From Candidatus Thorarchaeota archaeon (GTDB lineage: Archaea > Asgardarchaeota > Heimdallarchaeia > Hodarchaeales > Hodarchaeaceae): a stretch of DNA of 32,000 nucleotides. Positions within the stretch are counted from its first letter, which is position 1. Every line of letters starts with the position of its first letter. A model generated the notes under the pieces. The model was not told the origin of the DNA, did no database searches, and saw only the letters and a list, made by a program, of their open reading frames with translations. The translations under genes were made by a program, and so were the position numbers. Shown here one piece after another: positions 19,919 through 24,112 of this stretch. The stretch is from the NCBI GenBank assembly GCA_048882505.1, contig JBHLRO010000001.1, positions 390,001 through 422,000 of the forward strand, in the 5' to 3' direction.

Positions 19919-20236
19919 TCAGGGAATAGAGCAACCGCCGCCGATTGGAGGAAAAAATGAGATCTCACAAGATTGAGTGATCGTAGTAAATATTCCGTCA
20001 AGGGCATGGATGTTTCGACCATCCATCAATACAATAAAATCTGGTTTTAACGATTTTCCTTCTAAAAAAATCGTATCAGCTCCTTGGCCCAACTTTGTGT
20101 TAAACAAGGGAAATATGTGTAGTATAGGAGTCGGTTCTGGAATTTGAAGATCAATATTTTCAGGAAAAATGTCCTGTAATGAGGCAAAGAAAGTAAGCGT
20201 GACGTGAATGATGAGTACAGTCCTCCTATAACACAA
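19919..20236 (-). CDS. MoaD/ThiS/SAMP-family ubiquitin-like sulfur carrier with a C-terminal extension
   Basis: TFFASL start motif, DGRNIHALDG-x2-T, and FFPPIGGG followed by CSIP-stop. It lies directly downstream of an AOR-family gene. The start codon is uncertain. Confidence 0.85.
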   Translation of the reverse strand: MCYRRTVLIIHVTLTFFASLQDIFPENIDLQIPEPTPILHIFPLFNTKLGQGADTIFLEGKSLKPDFIVLMDGRNIHALDGIFTTITQSCEISFFPPIGGGCSIP

Positions 20237-20240
20237 GGGA

Positions 20241-22688
20241 TTACATACGAGACCTAATAATCTCCTTTAATCGTTTGGTAGCCTCGAGAGGATCCGCAGA
20301 TCGGGTTATTGCGCCTCCTACGATCAGTATATCTGCTCCAGCATCGATAGCTTCTGGGATGGTCTCGGCCTTAAGTCCTCCAGCTACCGCAATTGGGATT
20401 GAAACGGATTCTTTTAATTTTTTTAATGTTGGAAAAGGGATTTTATCAAAATCAGATCTTAATTGTTGATCTATTCCAATATGCAGACCAACAATGTCCA
20501 CTCCAATCTTTTCAAGTTGAATTGCCCGCTCTATCGGATTTTTTACTCCAATTAAATCTGCAAAAATCTTAACACCAAACTTCTCTCCGGCGCCCACGGC
20601 ATCTTCAAGCGTTTCATCAGGAGCAATTCCCAGGATGCACACTATATCCGCCCCAGCCAGAGCGGCCATTTCAGTTTCGAGAAAACCCGTATCCATGGTT
20701 TTTAGATCAGCTACAATCACTTTGTGAGGGAATAAGTGCCTTAATTGTGTAATAATGCCCATTCCTACCGCTTTGATCAGAGGAGTTCCAGCTTCAATCC
20801 AATCAATTCCGCCCAATGCGCTTCTTTTGGCAATCTTGATGGCTTCTTCTGTATCACGCAGATCCAAAGCCACCTGCAGCTTGGCAGCGGTTCGGAGAGG
20901 CTTTAGCGAAAGTTCCTCTAGTTTTCGTTCAGAGGGAACACCTAGTTCATCCCATCCTCGCAGACGATAATATTCTGAGAGTAGGTCGTCAATGTCAGCT
21001 AACAAACCTTTAGCGGGGCCCTGATCTAGGGGCTCAACCAGGAAACGTTTAGGTAATGAATCATCCAATCTGGTTAATCCTTCTCTAAGATTAAACAATC
21101 GTTCTAGGTTATATATTCGTTCTCCGATCTTTCTAAACTCATTCACGTCAATAAAAAAACCTGTTGCCGTTGTCAGTAGTCTGGCAAACAATTCAATTTC
21201 TAATTTCAGCGTAGAAAATGTAGCCATTGTTGTAAATTTACAAAATTCCGCAGAATCTAGTACGGCAAATATGTCCTGCATTTTACTGACTAATTCTGCT
21301 TTCCCGTCATCTGTAAATGGGTCGACAAAATGGGGGAGACTCAGTACTTCTTGGATAATAGTATACGCCCTTAAATGTGTTGCCCCGCTTGTTGAGGTAG
21401 CATAGCTTAGAGCCATTCCCCTGATCCCGCGTGGATCATAAGCGGGCATCTCAAGGCCCTTGATGTGTATAGCGAAGTCTCCTGAACCGTGACCTGTCTC
21501 TTGGGCAGCCTTCCGAACTCCATCAGCGAGTAAGTTTCCCTCATCCTCGCGATACGCAATCTTTCTAACCAAAGCTAGAAGTTTCTCTCCATCTCCAAAT
21601 TGAGGCGCATTCGAAACCAGGCCTTTTTCTCCACACTCCATGTACCATCCTATCGCGTTTCCTGTAGAGATTGTATCCATCCCAAGGGTGTTGCAAAGCT
21701 CATTGGCCTCAAAAATATGTTTCAGGCTGCTAATCTCGCAATTAGGCCCAAAGGCCCATACTGTTTCAAATTCTGGCCCCTCTGTTTCTACCCCCTCGTA
21801 ATTACTCACACGTCCACAGCCTATTGAACACGCACGACATGGCTCAATTTTCTTGAGATATTTTCGAACCGTTTCTCCCGCGACCTCTCTAATACCCTCA
21901 AATACTCCCGCTTGAAAGTTTTTAACCGGTAATGCCCCGTGCTTATTAACCAGGTTGGCAAGGATTAAGGTGCCATAGCGCCTCATGCCTGTGCCAGTGA
22001 CAGGATGCCCCTTGAGAACCTTGGCAAATTCCTTATTCGCTTGCCTGTAAGCAAATGGATTTGCAACGGTGACTGGTTTAGTACCCTGAACTAAGATTGC
22101 CTTCAGCTTTTTAGACCCCCAGACTGCTCCCACCCCTCCACGTCCAGCTGTTCGGGGTCCATTTCTTACACAGGCATAACGAACAAGATTTTCACCAGCC
22201 GGGCCAATTGCAGCAATCGAATGTAGAGGGTGTCGAGACCTTAGGATCTCCTCCGTTTCATCAATCAGTTTTCCCCAGAGATCCGAAGCATCTTCCAAGG
22301 TAACTTCTTCATCTTTTACCCTTAGATATACTGGTTCATCTGAGATACCCTCTATTATGATGCCATCATATCCAGCCCGTTTTAACTCTATTCCCAATTT
22401 ACCCCCACAGTGCGTATCGTTAAGTGTGTACTCTGTTAGGGGACTTTTGAAAACCATAGACCATCTAGAGGATGTAATTGAGTTTGTCCCTGTCATTGGA
22501 CCTGTCATCAGGGCTATCTTGTTATTTTCGCCTAAAGGATCAATTCCCGGTGAAAGTTCATCATATAGCAATTTGGCTCCCAAACCCCTGCCTCCAAGGA
22601 AATGTTGAGCAAATTCCATATTTAAAGGCTCTATTGTGATTTTCTTATCTTTTAGGTGGACTCGAATTAGTTTTCCTTGATAAGTCAC
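20241..22688 (-). CDS. aor-hps: Fusion of a tungsten-type aldehyde:ferredoxin oxidoreductase (AOR family) and 3-hexulose-6-phosphate synthase (HPS)
   Basis: 815 aa in one frame. N-terminal ~600 aa: GGRGLG, GRGGVGAVWGSKKLKAI, CRACSIGC plus DSAEFC (four [4Fe-4S] Cys), GPEFET, GMDTIS, PAYDPR, GATHL, EYYRLRGWD. C-terminal ~213 aa (20244-20882): KLQVALD, EAGTPLIK, ADLKTMDTG, HIGIDQQ, AVAGGL, VGGAIT. The PLIK and HxGxDQQ motifs fit HPS rather than keto-gulonate decarboxylase. Confidence 0.93.
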   Translation of the reverse strand: MTYQGKLIRVHLKDKKITIEPLNMEFAQHFLGGRGLGAKLLYDELSPGIDPLGENNKIALMTGPMTGTNSITSSRWSMVFKSPLTEYTLNDTHCGGKLGIELKRAGYDGIIIEGISDEPVYLRVKDEEVTLEDASDLWGKLIDETEEILRSRHPLHSIAAIGPAGENLVRYACVRNGPRTAGRGGVGAVWGSKKLKAILVQGTKPVTVANPFAYRQANKEFAKVLKGHPVTGTGMRRYGTLILANLVNKHGALPVKNFQAGVFEGIREVAGETVRKYLKKIEPCRACSIGCGRVSNYEGVETEGPEFETVWAFGPNCEISSLKHIFEANELCNTLGMDTISTGNAIGWYMECGEKGLVSNAPQFGDGEKLLALVRKIAYREDEGNLLADGVRKAAQETGHGSGDFAIHIKGLEMPAYDPRGIRGMALSYATSTSGATHLRAYTIIQEVLSLPHFVDPFTDDGKAELVSKMQDIFAVLDSAEFCKFTTMATFSTLKLEIELFARLLTTATGFFIDVNEFRKIGERIYNLERLFNLREGLTRLDDSLPKRFLVEPLDQGPAKGLLADIDDLLSEYYRLRGWDELGVPSERKLEELSLKPLRTAAKLQVALDLRDTEEAIKIAKRSALGGIDWIEAGTPLIKAVGMGIITQLRHLFPHKVIVADLKTMDTGFLETEMAALAGADIVCILGIAPDETLEDAVGAGEKFGVKIFADLIGVKNPIERAIQLEKIGVDIVGLHIGIDQQLRSDFDKIPFPTLKKLKESVSIPIAVAGGLKAETIPEAIDAGADILIVGGAITRSADPLEATKRLKEIIRSRM

Positions 22689-22960: not shown

Positions 22961-24112
22961 TTACTGGATATTCGCGTGTTCTCGGCGCATCTCTGATTCC
23001 GAAATCCTTAGGTCATGAGCTAATTGGGCTACACATGAATCCATGAATATAGCAGTTACATATTCAAAGGAAGGTAAAAGTATACGGAGATCCGAGATTT
23101 GACGCAGTTCGACGGCCCGAGACTCAGTTCTGCCCTCTAGTTTAATGAAAATATCACTATTTTGAGCTAATCGTGATTCAGGAAATGATGTAAGTCCGAC
23201 AACATTCATTTCTGCTGATCTGGCGCTTCCTACTCTTTCGAGTGTACTAGTGGAATTTCCCGATCCAGAGATCGCAATAAGCATGTCATCTGAATCCCTG
23301 AAACGCCAATCATAGTTTGATTTTATATTTACAGAACAATGGATCAATCTAATCGACGTCATACTCCCTATGATAGCATCCAAGCCACTACCGTAAATAT
23401 ACACTTTTTTTTCTGGCTTGTTCGAATATCTTTCAATCAAACGGATGAATTTGGAGAGAACTTCTTCATTATCGTTTATATATGCTAATGTTGCTTCAGA
23501 AGCAGATAGCACCCTATTGACTCCGTCGTTGAACCCTTTTATGGTAGAATCATCATTTAATCCTGAGAAAATACCCATTCCCACCAAGAGAGAGTTCATC
23601 TCAAACATGGTTCCCATGGGAGTGAGGGGGGCATGGTTCGAGCTACTTTCTTCTTCAAATCCAGCAATAACGGGATATGGAATCTCAATGATGGTGTCTG
23701 CTAATCGTGCAGCTTTAGAACGGGGGTCTCGTGTCATAACGAGGATTTTTGCCCCTCGCTGGATCGAATCATCTAGTGATTTGCAGGTGAAAGGCGTCCA
23801 GCCTGATCCAGTGACCCCGATGACCACATCATCCTTCCTCACGGGTTTTGCTAAACTTTTACCCAAGTAACTTATTCGAAAGCCTATATTCTTTAAAATC
23901 TCCCCTAGTAACATTCCTACCTTTCCAGAACGTCCCATTCCCACGATATGGACAAGGTTTTGCTTTTCTCGTGCTCTGGACAAATATTCGCAAAATTCCA
24001 TTAAGGGAGGGGGAGCTTGATTAATAAAATTTACGGCCTTCTTACCAGCCTTGAGTAAACGATGATAAGCTGAATAAAATGAGGAAAGTTGGTTGGAGTC
24101 GGTTGATATCAC
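22961..24112 (-). CDS. phi: 6-phospho-3-hexuloisomerase (PHI), tandem double-SIS form
   Basis: 383 aa, about twice a normal PHI. Domain 1: GMGRSG, TGSGWT, PLTPMGTMFE. Domain 2: YIYGSG, ISGSGNS, TSFPESRLA, C-terminal EHANIQ (PHI HANLE-like). It lies next to an HPS domain. Confidence 0.85.
   Translation of the reverse strand: MISTDSNQLSSFYSAYHRLLKAGKKAVNFINQAPPPLMEFCEYLSRAREKQNLVHIVGMGRSGKVGMLLGEILKNIGFRISYLGKSLAKPVRKDDVVIGVTGSGWTPFTCKSLDDSIQRGAKILVMTRDPRSKAARLADTIIEIPYPVIAGFEEESSSNHAPLTPMGTMFEMNSLLVGMGIFSGLNDDSTIKGFNDGVNRVLSASEATLAYINDNEEVLSKFIRLIERYSNKPEKKVYIYGSGLDAIIGSMTSIRLIHCSVNIKSNYDWRFRDSDDMLIAISGSGNSTSTLERVGSARSAEMNVVGLTSFPESRLAQNSDIFIKLEGRTESRAVELRQISDLRILLPSFEYVTAIFMDSCVAQLAHDLRISESEMRREHANIQ

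What the first reader, a model, noticed from the sequence alone, without database searches (positions are those of the whole stretch)
20241..22688. In-frame fusion of a tungsten aldehyde:ferredoxin oxidoreductase with hexulose-6-phosphate synthase
Seen: one uninterrupted 815-aa frame. An AOR-family enzyme with all four [4Fe-4S] cysteines and the Glu/Tyr/His active-site motifs ends at ...GVPSERKLEELSL and is joined by about 7 residues (KPLRTAA) to a complete HPS barrel. Established: many archaea run the RuMP pathway in reverse (PHI then HPS) to make ribulose-5-phosphate, releasing toxic formaldehyde, and AOR/FOR-family tungstoenzymes oxidise aldehydes including formaldehyde. The HPS fusions I know are Hps-Phi (Thermococcales) and Fae-Hps (methanogens, which capture formaldehyde on H4MPT); I do not know a characterised AOR-HPS fusion. 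Inference: this is a third solution to the same problem. Formaldehyde released by HPS would be oxidised to formate on the same polypeptide, yielding reduced ferredoxin, so pentose synthesis becomes a source of low-potential electrons.
Basis: partly seen in the sequence, partly recalled or inferred. Interest (0 to 1): 0.9.

Follow-up and report, generated by a model that had tools for sequence, protein, structure and literature searches.

The report
Aldehyde oxidoreductase fused to hexulose-phosphate synthase
One archaeal gene joins the enzyme that splits a six-carbon sugar phosphate into a pentose phosphate plus toxic formaldehyde to a tungsten-type enzyme able to oxidise aldehydes; the fusion is real, conserved across many archaeal lineages, and apparently undescribed. 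It probably shows how these cells dispose of formaldehyde when they make pentoses.

Summary
Window 20241-22688 (-) is one 815-aa frame with AFOR_N, AFOR_C, a 7-residue linker and a complete hexulose-6-phosphate synthase (HPS) barrel.

- **Not an artefact.** About 90 protein clusters from independent assemblies share the architecture, with an almost invariant linker length. Source names place them in Heimdall/Hodarchaeales, Thor-, Bathy-, Nezha-, Hadarchaeota, Methanomethylicia, Thermoplasmata and DPANN.
- **Co-evolution.** The two halves give congruent trees, and one origin is not rejected.
- **Catalytic residues.** All catalytic residues checked in both halves are invariant in 69 fusions.
- **Clade.** The oxidoreductase half resembles broad-spectrum AOR (1AOR), not FOR.
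- **Genome context.** In this 94.6%-complete genome the fusion carries the only HPS. No transketolase, transaldolase, G6P dehydrogenase or Fae was found. A two-SIS PHI gene and a MoaD-like gene stay linked to the fusion in relatives.

The best reading is reverse RuMP pentose synthesis, with formaldehyde oxidised in situ to formate plus reduced ferredoxin. Metal, substrate and channelling are inferred.

I found no paper describing the fusion, and public names are inconsistent. This scan noted the same fusion on three other genomes. I rate it a new variant of known HPS fusions (Fae-HPS, HPS-PHI).

The parts
20241..22688 (-). Whole AOR-HPS fusion gene: 815 codons plus stop, GTG start
22080..22676 (-). 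AFOR_N domain (residues 5-203), the pterin-binding N-terminal domain of the AOR family
   Evidence: Pfam PF02730, E 9.6e-74
20904..22040 (-). AFOR_C domains 2 and 3 (residues 217-595). They hold second-shell T240, E308, Y417 and H438.
   Evidence: Pfam PF01314, E 2.9e-136. Alignment to 1AOR. Residues invariant in 69 fusions. Residue roles from PMC12096430.
21816..21839 (-). C284-x2-C287-x3-C291, three of the four [4Fe-4S] cysteines. The fourth, C483, lies at 21240-21242.
   Evidence: Aligned to the PfAOR CxxCxxxC...C motif. Invariant in 69 of 69 fusions.
20883..20903 (-). Linker KPLRTAA (residues 596-602) between the AOR C-terminus and HPS strand beta-1
   Evidence: The segment covering residues 590-612 is 23 residues long in 64 of 69 fusions and 24 in the other 5.
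20244..20882 (-). 3-hexulose-6-phosphate synthase barrel (residues 603-815), with D609, E632, D661-x-K663-x-x-D666, H736 and G770-G771
   Evidence: TIGR03128 at 207.1 bits versus cut-off 200. Residues invariant in 69 fusions. Model TM 0.95 to M. gastri HPS 3AJX.
19919..20236 (-). MoaD/ThiS-like small ORF directly downstream. Homology starts about 30 codons into the ORF, and the protein ends ...PPIGGGCSIP.
   Evidence: Weak Pfam ThiS match. Conserved immediately downstream of the fusion in 10 related Asgard loci at 43-51% identity, and a ThiS-family gene is adjacent in Nezhaarchaeales.
22961..24112 (-). Two-SIS-domain 6-phospho-3-hexuloisomerase (PHI)-like gene, 272 nt upstream and co-directional. 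It is the only PHI-like gene found in the genome.
   Evidence: TIGR03127 matches both halves, 137.6 bits in total, which is below the cut-off of 160. Stays linked to the fusion in relatives.

Best explanation
The gene encodes a bifunctional enzyme of the reverse ribulose-monophosphate route for pentose synthesis.

1. The neighbouring two-SIS PHI converts fructose-6-phosphate to arabino-3-hexulose-6-phosphate.
2. The C-terminal HPS barrel cleaves this to ribulose-5-phosphate plus formaldehyde.
3. The N-terminal AOR-type pyranopterin/[4Fe-4S] module, held by a short linker of fixed length, oxidises the formaldehyde to formate and passes two electrons to ferredoxin.

Removing formaldehyde detoxifies the cell and pulls the otherwise unfavourable cleavage forward. 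It plays the role that Fae plays in Fae-HPS of H4MPT-containing archaea.

Shown here: the architecture, its conservation, intact catalytic residues in both halves, co-evolution of the halves, linkage to PHI, and the absence of detectable alternative pentose routes and of Fae.

Inferred: that formaldehyde is the AOR substrate, that transfer between the sites is direct, that the metal is tungsten, that the acceptor is ferredoxin, and that formate is excreted or used by the two PurP-type formate-dependent purine enzymes of this genome.
For: **Architecture and family scores.**

**Spread.** 90 of the 120 listed clusters carry AFOR plus OMPdecase domains. Source names span at least eight archaeal lineages.

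**Linker.** Its length is nearly invariant.

**Catalytic residues.** T240, E308, Y417, H438, the four Cys, and HPS D609, E632, D661, K663, D666 and H736 are invariant in 69 fusions.

**Relationship of the AOR halves.**
- Queried alone, the AOR half hits fused proteins first: 632 and 622 bits, against 542 for the best stand-alone AOR.
- In the AOR tree, 42 of 44 fusions form one clade (SH-aLRT 93) and all 44 lie in a starred clade.
- In the HPS tree, 43 of 44 form one clade (SH-aLRT 94) with the same sub-clades.
- The AU test does not reject a single clade that includes the Hadarchaeal forms (p 0.81).

**Own genome (94.55% complete).**
- The fusion holds the only HPS; the other OMPdecase hit is a 256-aa ORF.
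- Not found: Fae (23), Transketolase_N (25), G6PD (26), transaldolase (27).
- Present: RpiA (67).
- Across the genus, Fae is found in 0 of 22 genomes. Transketolase appears only on one short contig of a MAG with 9% contamination.

**Synteny.** The fusion, the MoaD-like gene and the two-SIS PHI stay together in related Asgard loci. PHI-like genes also lie near the fusion in Hadarchaeia and in locus L089.

**Structure.** AlphaFold2 gives pLDDT 93.6 and pTM 0.91 for the whole chain. Each half matches solved AOR or HPS structures at TM 0.95.

**Literature.**
- AOR-clade enzymes oxidise formaldehyde: 4.14 U/mg for A. aromaticum AOR (PMC6365974).
- The Fae-HPS fusion is thought to capture released formaldehyde at once (PMC5241800).
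Against: - There is no biochemical evidence for any member.
- The AOR half is of the broad-spectrum type, so formaldehyde specificity is not implied by its clade.
- Tyr312 of PfAOR is Phe307 in this protein and in 11 of 69 fusions.
- I could not read the model's coordinates or its error map, so the distance between the two active sites and any tunnel are unknown.
- Seven species of the same genus lack the fusion. They carry a stand-alone, divergent HPS-like ORF of 227-259 aa, so the fusion is not obligatory. Two further genomes have no HPS match at all.
- Absences rest on Pfam and NCBIfam searches of a 94.55%-complete MAG.
- No WtpA tungstate-binding protein was found in the genus.
- One true stand-alone AOR (P0155) sits inside the fusion clade.
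Confidence: 0.72

Rival explanations
1. The enzyme runs in the assimilatory direction. The AOR module uses reduced ferredoxin to reduce formate to formaldehyde, and the HPS barrel condenses it at once with ribulose-5-phosphate. Fusion would keep free formaldehyde low and pull an unfavourable reduction.
For: AOR-family enzymes reduce non-activated acids with low-potential donors (PMC9295118 abstract; PMC12096430). HPS and PHI are reversible (PMC5241800). A fusion would help this direction at least as much as the other. Some carriers, named Bathyarchaeota, Thorarchaeota and Methanomethylicia by their sources, belong to lineages with C1 metabolism; that point rests on my own knowledge.
Against: In this genome, and in 21 of 22 genomes of the genus, no transketolase was found. 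In this genome no transaldolase was found either, so ribulose-5-phosphate could not be regenerated and the cycle could not turn. I also found no formate dehydrogenase alpha subunit, FocA-type formate channel or formate-THF ligase that would supply or handle formate. This was not examined in other lineages.
Confidence: 0.1
2. The two halves are not a metabolic couple. The AOR half oxidises other aldehydes, for example from amino-acid fermentation. It is fused to HPS for co-expression or stability, or the pair serves only as a general defence against external formaldehyde, fixing it or oxidising it.
For: The AOR half is of the broad-substrate type, and the genome has eight further AOR paralogues. 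Within the genus the fusion is replaceable by a stand-alone HPS-like gene.
Against: Formaldehyde is the only aldehyde that HPS makes or uses (established enzymology). The linker length is nearly invariant, and both halves have co-evolved across distant lineages since what looks like one origin. The fusion carries the only HPS of a genome with no other pentose route detected. A split variant keeps the two genes abutting.
Confidence: 0.12
3. The frame is an assembly chimera or a sequencing artefact that joins two neighbouring genes.
Against: The same in-frame junction occurs in about 90 clusters from four independent data sources, in 18 of 400 Asgard species genomes, and on single-contig genomes. 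The linker is conserved and composition is uniform across it.
Confidence: 0.01

Closest known systems
Fae-HPS bifunctional enzyme of methanogens and other H4MPT-using archaea (NCBIfam NF009833; e.g. M. hungatei Mhun1628; PMC5241800)
   Same: HPS is fused to an enzyme that takes up formaldehyde, in archaea that use the RuMP steps in reverse to make ribulose-5-phosphate. The proposed logic, immediate capture of released formaldehyde, is the same.
   Different: The partner here is a ~600-aa redox enzyme of the AOR family, not the ~160-aa Fae. The partner sits N-terminal in both fusions. The product would be formate plus reduced ferredoxin, not methylene-H4MPT. No Fae was found in this genome or its genus. 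The NF009833 match covers only the HPS part.
HPS-PHI fusion of Thermococcales (NCBIfam NF041755; structure 9LJ9)
   Same: The HPS barrel is 51% identical over 211 columns to 9LJ9, and the role in pentose synthesis is the same.
   Different: PHI is not fused here. It is a separate two-SIS gene next door. HPS-PHI offers no built-in fate for formaldehyde.
Aldehyde:ferredoxin oxidoreductase sensu stricto (P. furiosus AOR, PDB 1AOR; also 9MQX, 9G7J, AorB 8C0Z)
   Same: 526 bits and about 44% identity to 1AOR. Model TM 0.95 and rmsd 1.3 A. All four [4Fe-4S] cysteines and the Thr/Glu/Tyr/His second shell are kept. A MoaD-like gene lies beside it, as in the aor operon of A. aromaticum.
   Different: It carries a C-terminal HPS domain found in no solved or reviewed AOR. 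The fused AOR halves form their own clade, apart from nearly all stand-alone AORs sampled. Phe stands at the Tyr312 position in this copy.
Formaldehyde:ferredoxin oxidoreductase (FOR, PDB 1B25)
   Same: Same family and chemistry. It is the named formaldehyde oxidiser of Thermococcales.
   Different: It is clearly more distant: 352 bits against 526 for AOR. The 2025 review doubts that formaldehyde is FOR's native substrate.
HPS-MenG/RraA-like fusion (NCBIfam NF005442; M. hungatei Mhun0647)
   Same: It is another HPS fusion, and it is the usual HPS form in most other Asgard genomes surveyed, as ORFs of 437-473 aa.
   Different: Its partner domain has no known function and follows the HPS barrel rather than preceding it. 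It has no redox module.

Membership tests
AOR/WOR family, AOR sensu stricto-like | AFOR_N plus AFOR_C domain pair | tested here: met
   PF02730 at 247.9 bits and PF01314 at 455 bits
AOR/WOR family, AOR sensu stricto-like | Four cysteines ligating one [4Fe-4S] cluster | tested here: met
   C284, C287, C291 and C483 align to the PfAOR cluster cysteines and are invariant in 69 of 69 fusions
AOR/WOR family, AOR sensu stricto-like | [quoted passage not shown] | tested here: met
   T240, E308, Y417 and H438 by the alignment. All four are invariant.
AOR/WOR family, AOR sensu stricto-like | Closer to AOR than to FOR, GAPOR, WOR5 or BamB | tested here: met
   1AOR 526 bits, 9MQX 505, 9G7J 474, 8C0Z 435, 1B25 (FOR) 352, WOR5 210, BamB 184. 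Foldseek gives the same order. No formal tree with named reference clades was built.
AOR/WOR family, AOR sensu stricto-like | Tungsten-bis-pyranopterin cofactor and aldehyde-oxidising activity | not testable with these tools
   Needs purified protein. WtpA was not found in the genus, so the metal is open.
3-hexulose-6-phosphate synthase (TIGR03128, RuMP_HxlA) | Score at or above the curated equivalog-domain cut-off | tested here: met
   207.1 bits against 200. 211.3 bits in the genome search.
3-hexulose-6-phosphate synthase (TIGR03128, RuMP_HxlA) | OMPDC-suprafamily catalytic set: Asp-x-Lys-x-x-Asp, a metal-binding Glu, a catalytic His, and the phosphate-binding glycine loops. The assignment of roles is from my own knowledge of KGPDC and HPS. 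| tested here: met
   D661-L-K663-T-M-D666, E632, H736, G770-G771 and G791 are invariant in 69 fusions
3-hexulose-6-phosphate synthase (TIGR03128, RuMP_HxlA) | HPS fold | tested here: met
   TM 0.95 and rmsd 1.3 A to 3AJX; 51% identity to the HPS part of 9LJ9
3-hexulose-6-phosphate synthase (TIGR03128, RuMP_HxlA) | Hu6P aldolase activity | not testable with these tools
   Needs an enzyme assay
Fae-HPS bifunctional enzyme (NF009833) | An Fae (PF08714) domain fused to HPS | tested here: not met
   There is no Fae domain in the protein. NF009833 matches only profile positions 169-375, at 154.9 bits against a cut-off of 274. No Fae was found in the genome or the genus. The protein works like Fae-HPS but is not a member.
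HPS-PHI bifunctional enzyme (NF041755) | A PHI (SIS) domain fused C-terminal to HPS | tested here: not met
   Only profile positions 4-212 of 391 are matched, at 207 bits against a cut-off of 500. PHI is a separate neighbouring gene.

The most novel reading that the evidence does not exclude
In at least some carrier lineages the fusion would run backwards as a natural formate-assimilation module. Ferredoxin-driven reduction of formate to enzyme-held formaldehyde by the AOR half would be followed at once by condensation with ribulose-5-phosphate. This would be a natural counterpart of engineered formate-to-formaldehyde-to-sugar routes. For this genome my evidence speaks against it, since no way to regenerate Ru5P was found, but it is not excluded for lineages with a full non-oxidative pentose pathway.
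Probability: 0.1. Interest if true: 0.9.

Novelty: new variant of a known kind. Interest (0 to 1): 0.68.

Why it matters
Many archaea lack the pentose phosphate pathway and make ribulose-5-phosphate by running HPS and PHI in reverse. This releases one formaldehyde per pentose. For archaea with H4MPT, the Fae-HPS fusion suggests where that formaldehyde goes. For archaea without Fae, its fate has largely been guessed.

A conserved fusion of HPS to an AOR-type oxidoreductase, probably of single origin, is Rosetta-stone evidence that an AOR-family enzyme is the physiological formaldehyde sink there. It implies that unfused AOR or FOR paralogues may do the same job in Thermococcales and elsewhere. 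It would also give one AOR clade a defined physiological substrate, in a family whose native substrates are mostly unknown.

The prediction is directly testable: ferredoxin or viologen reduction dependent on hexulose-6-phosphate.

The proteins are currently named 'orotidine 5'-phosphate decarboxylase', 'aldehyde ferredoxin oxidoreductase', 'DUF561 protein' or 'hypothetical'. Metabolic reconstructions of Asgard, Bathyarchaeia and other MAGs are therefore likely to misread them.

Tried and rejected
- **Complex prediction.** The AOR half (1-597) against the HPS half (603-815), both from alignment A1, returned 'no answer' with a score of 0.00. It counts neither for nor against docking.
- **Geometry of the model.** The AlphaFold2 model's coordinates and error map are not available in the Python box. 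I could not measure the distance between the two sites or look for a tunnel.
- **The search for related loci in genome contigs.** With a junction-spanning query it returned mostly HPS-only loci, because its patterns came from the HPS side. Only 5 of 80 loci spanned the junction, so it is not a prevalence estimate.
- **Independent second origin in Hadarchaeota.** The free HPS tree suggested this, but the AU test does not support separating them (p 0.81). I do not claim convergence.
- **Co-occurrence within the genus.** Fae and transketolase are absent from carriers and non-carriers alike, so they do not explain who has the fusion. FolD is found in 11 of 13 carriers and 2 of 9 non-carriers, but these genomes are close kin and this is not an independent test.
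- **Tungsten uptake.** WtpA was not found in any of 22 genomes of the genus. TupA and ModA were not searched.
- **Literature.** Seven full-text searches found no description of the fusion. Orita et al. 2006 (PMC1482999) is not held.
Full report
**Observation.** The window holds one uninterrupted 815-codon frame at 20241-22688 on the minus strand.
- Pfam finds AFOR_N (residues 5-203), AFOR_C (217-595) and OMPdecase/HUMPS (603-806).
- The NCBIfam equivalog-domain model for 3-hexulose-6-phosphate synthase, TIGR03128, matches residues 604-811 at 207.1 bits, just above its cut-off of 200.
The junction lies at window 20883-20903.
- GC content is even across it.

Comparative evidence is decisive instead.
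- A search restricted to the linker and HPS part, admitting only proteins of 448-1427 aa, returned 90 clusters (at 90% identity) that carry both AFOR and OMPdecase domains. They come from NCBI, JGI, ENA and Logan assemblies.
- Source names place them in Heimdallarchaeota/Hodarchaeales, Thorarchaeota, Thermoplasmata, Methanomethyliaceae/Verstraetearchaeota, Nezhaarchaeota, Bathyarchaeota, Aenigmarchaeota/Nanohaloarchaeota and Hadarchaeota.
- In an alignment of 82 full-length members, the join between the AOR C-terminus and HPS strand 1 has almost no length variation. The segment matching residues 590-612 is 23 residues long in 64 of 69 short forms and 24 in the other 5.
- Among 400 species genomes of the same phylum, 18 have a stop-free match spanning the junction. 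Thirteen of these are in the 22 genomes of the window's own genus, some assembled as single contigs.

**Both halves look functional.**
- The AOR half aligns end to end with P. furiosus AOR (1AOR, 526 bits).
- It keeps the four cluster cysteines (C284, C287, C291, C483).
- It also keeps T240, E308, Y417 and H438. These are the equivalents of Thr243, Glu313, Tyr427 and His448, which a 2025 review lists as the conserved second-shell residues.
- These residues, and HPS residues D609, E632, D661, K663, D666, H736 and G770-G771, are invariant in 69 fusions.
- One difference: Tyr312 of PfAOR is Phe307 here and in 11 of 69 fusions.
- The half is clearly closer to broad-spectrum AOR than to FOR (352 bits) or WOR5 (210 bits).
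- AlphaFold2 on the 69-row alignment gave mean pLDDT 93.6 and pTM 0.91.
- The AOR body superposes on 9MQX and 1AOR at TM 0.95, and the barrel on M. gastri HPS 3AJX at TM 0.95. No solved chain covers both parts.
- A pTM of 0.91 for a chain whose larger module is 73% of its length suggests a defined mutual orientation. That is my inference, because I could not read the coordinates or the error map.

**Evolution.**
- Queried alone against 1.84 billion representatives, the AOR half hits two fused proteins first (632 and 622 bits). The best stand-alone AOR scores 542 bits.
- In a quick ML tree of 118 AOR domains, 42 of 44 non-redundant fusions form one clade (SH-aLRT 93). All 44 lie within a starred clade (96) that also contains three shorter proteins and one long-branch paralogue from this genome.
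- Of the two shorter proteins I followed up, P0156 is the upstream part of a split fusion and P0155 is a genuine stand-alone AOR.
- The HPS tree puts 43 of 44 fusion barrels in one clade (SH-aLRT 94), with the same two major sub-clades as the AOR tree.
- The Hadarchaeal type sits apart on a long branch. The AU test does not reject one clade of all fusions (p 0.81), and the constrained tree was in fact better.
- The simplest reading is one ancient fusion whose halves then co-evolved, with spread across phyla by descent and transfer.

**Genomic context.** The window's genome is 4.32 Mb in 83 contigs and 94.55% complete.

| Searched in the own genome | Result |
|---|---|
| OMPdecase-family hits | Two: the fusion and a 256-aa ORF |
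| AOR paralogues | Nine |
| Fae | Not found |
| PHI | Only the two-SIS gene 272 nt upstream |
| Transketolase_N | Not found |
| G6P dehydrogenase | Not found |
| Transaldolase | Not found |
| Ribose-5-phosphate isomerase A | Present |

- Across the 22 genomes of the genus, Fae is absent from all. Transketolase appears only on one short contig of a MAG with 9% contamination.
- The reverse RuMP route is therefore the only pentose route I can detect, and it passes through this protein.
- The fusion, a MoaD-like ORF directly downstream and the two-SIS PHI stay together in Asgard relatives at 43-70% identity, although PHI changes side and strand.
- A two-SIS PHI-like gene follows the Hadarchaeal fusion, a ThiS-family gene abuts the Nezhaarchaeal one, and a single-SIS gene lies 2.5 kb from another.
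- MoaD-like genes accompany aor operons elsewhere, for example aorD and aorE of A. aromaticum.

**Mechanism.** Formaldehyde is the only aldehyde HPS makes or consumes.
- AOR-clade enzymes oxidise formaldehyde, for example at 4.14 U/mg for A. aromaticum AOR.
- In methanogens, the Fae-HPS fusion is interpreted as immediate capture of formaldehyde released during Ru5P synthesis.
- I therefore read the protein as F6P -> (PHI) Hu6P -> (HPS) Ru5P + HCHO -> (AOR) formate + 2 reduced ferredoxin.
- From established thermodynamics, Hu6P cleavage is unfavourable and the formate/formaldehyde couple is very negative. Oxidation would therefore pull the cleavage forward as well as detoxify. The electron yield, two per pentose, is small, so 'a source of low-potential electrons' is true but probably secondary.
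- The fate of formate is open. I found no formate dehydrogenase alpha subunit, formate-THF ligase or FocA. The genome does have two tandem PurP-family genes for formate-dependent purine synthesis, and a FolD. Use of the formate for purine C1 units, or its excretion, is speculation.

**Rivals.**
- *Assimilatory direction* (formate reduced by the AOR half, formaldehyde fixed by HPS). This is chemically possible, since AORs reduce acids. It cannot cycle here without transketolase and transaldolase. I give it 0.1 overall.
- *A non-metabolic or purely defensive fusion.* This fits poorly with the fixed linker, the co-evolution of the halves and the fusion being the sole HPS. However, seven congeners do without the fusion and carry a divergent stand-alone HPS-like gene of 227-259 aa.
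- *A chimera.* This is excluded for the family.

**Novelty.**
- Seven full-text searches found no description of an AOR-HPS fusion.
- Metabolic papers on Asgard and Brockarchaeota discuss HPS fusions (HPS-PHI, Fae-HPS) and AORs separately.
- A 2025 review of obligately tungsten-dependent enzymes contains neither 'hexulose' nor 'fusion'.
- Database names are inconsistent.
- The library misses most subscription journals, so a prior mention cannot be excluded.
- This scan had already flagged the same fusion on three other genomes, with the same reading. Those are unchecked AI notes and are not independent evidence.
- I class it as a new variant of a known kind: a further HPS fusion beside Fae-HPS, HPS-PHI and HPS-MenG.

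**Not done or inconclusive.** The complex-prediction job gave no verdict. Active-site distance, metal identity, substrate kinetics and expression remain open.

Noticed in passing
window 22961-24112 (-): The neighbouring PHI-like protein has two SIS halves, each matching TIGR03127 (76 and 65 bits in the genome search; 137.6 bits for the whole protein, below the cut-off of 160). M. hungatei has two separate PHIs, PHI-a and PHI-b, that are active only together (PMC5241800). This gene may be a fused form of such a pair.
   Followed up: partly
window 19919-20236 (-): The MoaD/ThiS-like ORF ends ...PPIGGGCSIP, a Gly-Gly followed by a 5-residue tail. It has no ATG or GTG in frame; the only starts are TTG at 20236, 4 nt after the fusion's stop, and TTG at 20107 and 20092. 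Homology to relatives begins about 30 codons in.
   Followed up: partly
P0036-P0043 (988-1004 aa); locus L090:698-3676: Long forms carry about 185 extra residues between AOR and HPS. The insert is a second, shorter HPS-like segment that keeps WxE..SPLIK and the D-x-K-x-M-D motif. Members of one such cluster are named Aenigmarchaeota or Nanohaloarchaeota (DPANN) by their sources.
   Followed up: partly
L096:3001-5505 and L097:201-2705: This is a split variant. An in-frame TAG interrupts the conserved ...YYKLRGW(V)*LDGIP... motif near the AOR C-terminus, and the next codon is TTG, so gene callers report a 562-aa AOR abutting a 271-aa HPS. The layout is identical in an ENA and a JGI assembly. It could be a true fission, stop read-through or a pseudogene.
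   Followed up: partly
G065:C1:1043270-1050721 (same genus, single contig): The fusion's HPS domain appears interrupted. Profile positions 1-65 end at 1043869 and positions 70-205 resume at 1050308, about 6.4 kb away. This may be an insertion or a misassembly.
   Followed up: no
G057, G058, G060-G064 (same genus): Seven congeners lack the fusion and carry a stand-alone HPS-like ORF of 227-259 aa scoring only 117-126 bits on TIGR03128 (cut-off 200). FolD (PF02882) is found in 11 of 13 fusion carriers and 2 of 9 non-carriers, but these genomes are close kin, so this is not an independent test.
   Followed up: partly
G000:C3:132818-134415 and C3:120188-120643: Two tandem PurP-family (DUF1297) genes, and a FolD about 12 kb away, lie in the window's genome. 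No formate-THF ligase, formate dehydrogenase alpha subunit or FocA was found.
   Followed up: no
window 24816-26957 (-): An alpha-glucan phosphorylase (DUF3417 plus Phosphorylase domains) lies just upstream of PHI on the same strand. Together they form a possible glycogen-to-pentose neighbourhood, as another first-stage note suggests (e1-5415956). I did not test whether it is conserved.
   Followed up: no
public records of P0025, P0052, P0060, P0080, P0305 and others: Fusion proteins are named 'orotidine 5'-phosphate decarboxylase', 'aldehyde ferredoxin oxidoreductase', 'DUF561 domain-containing protein', '3-hexulose-6-phosphate synthase' or 'hypothetical protein'. None is named as bifunctional.
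   Followed up: yes
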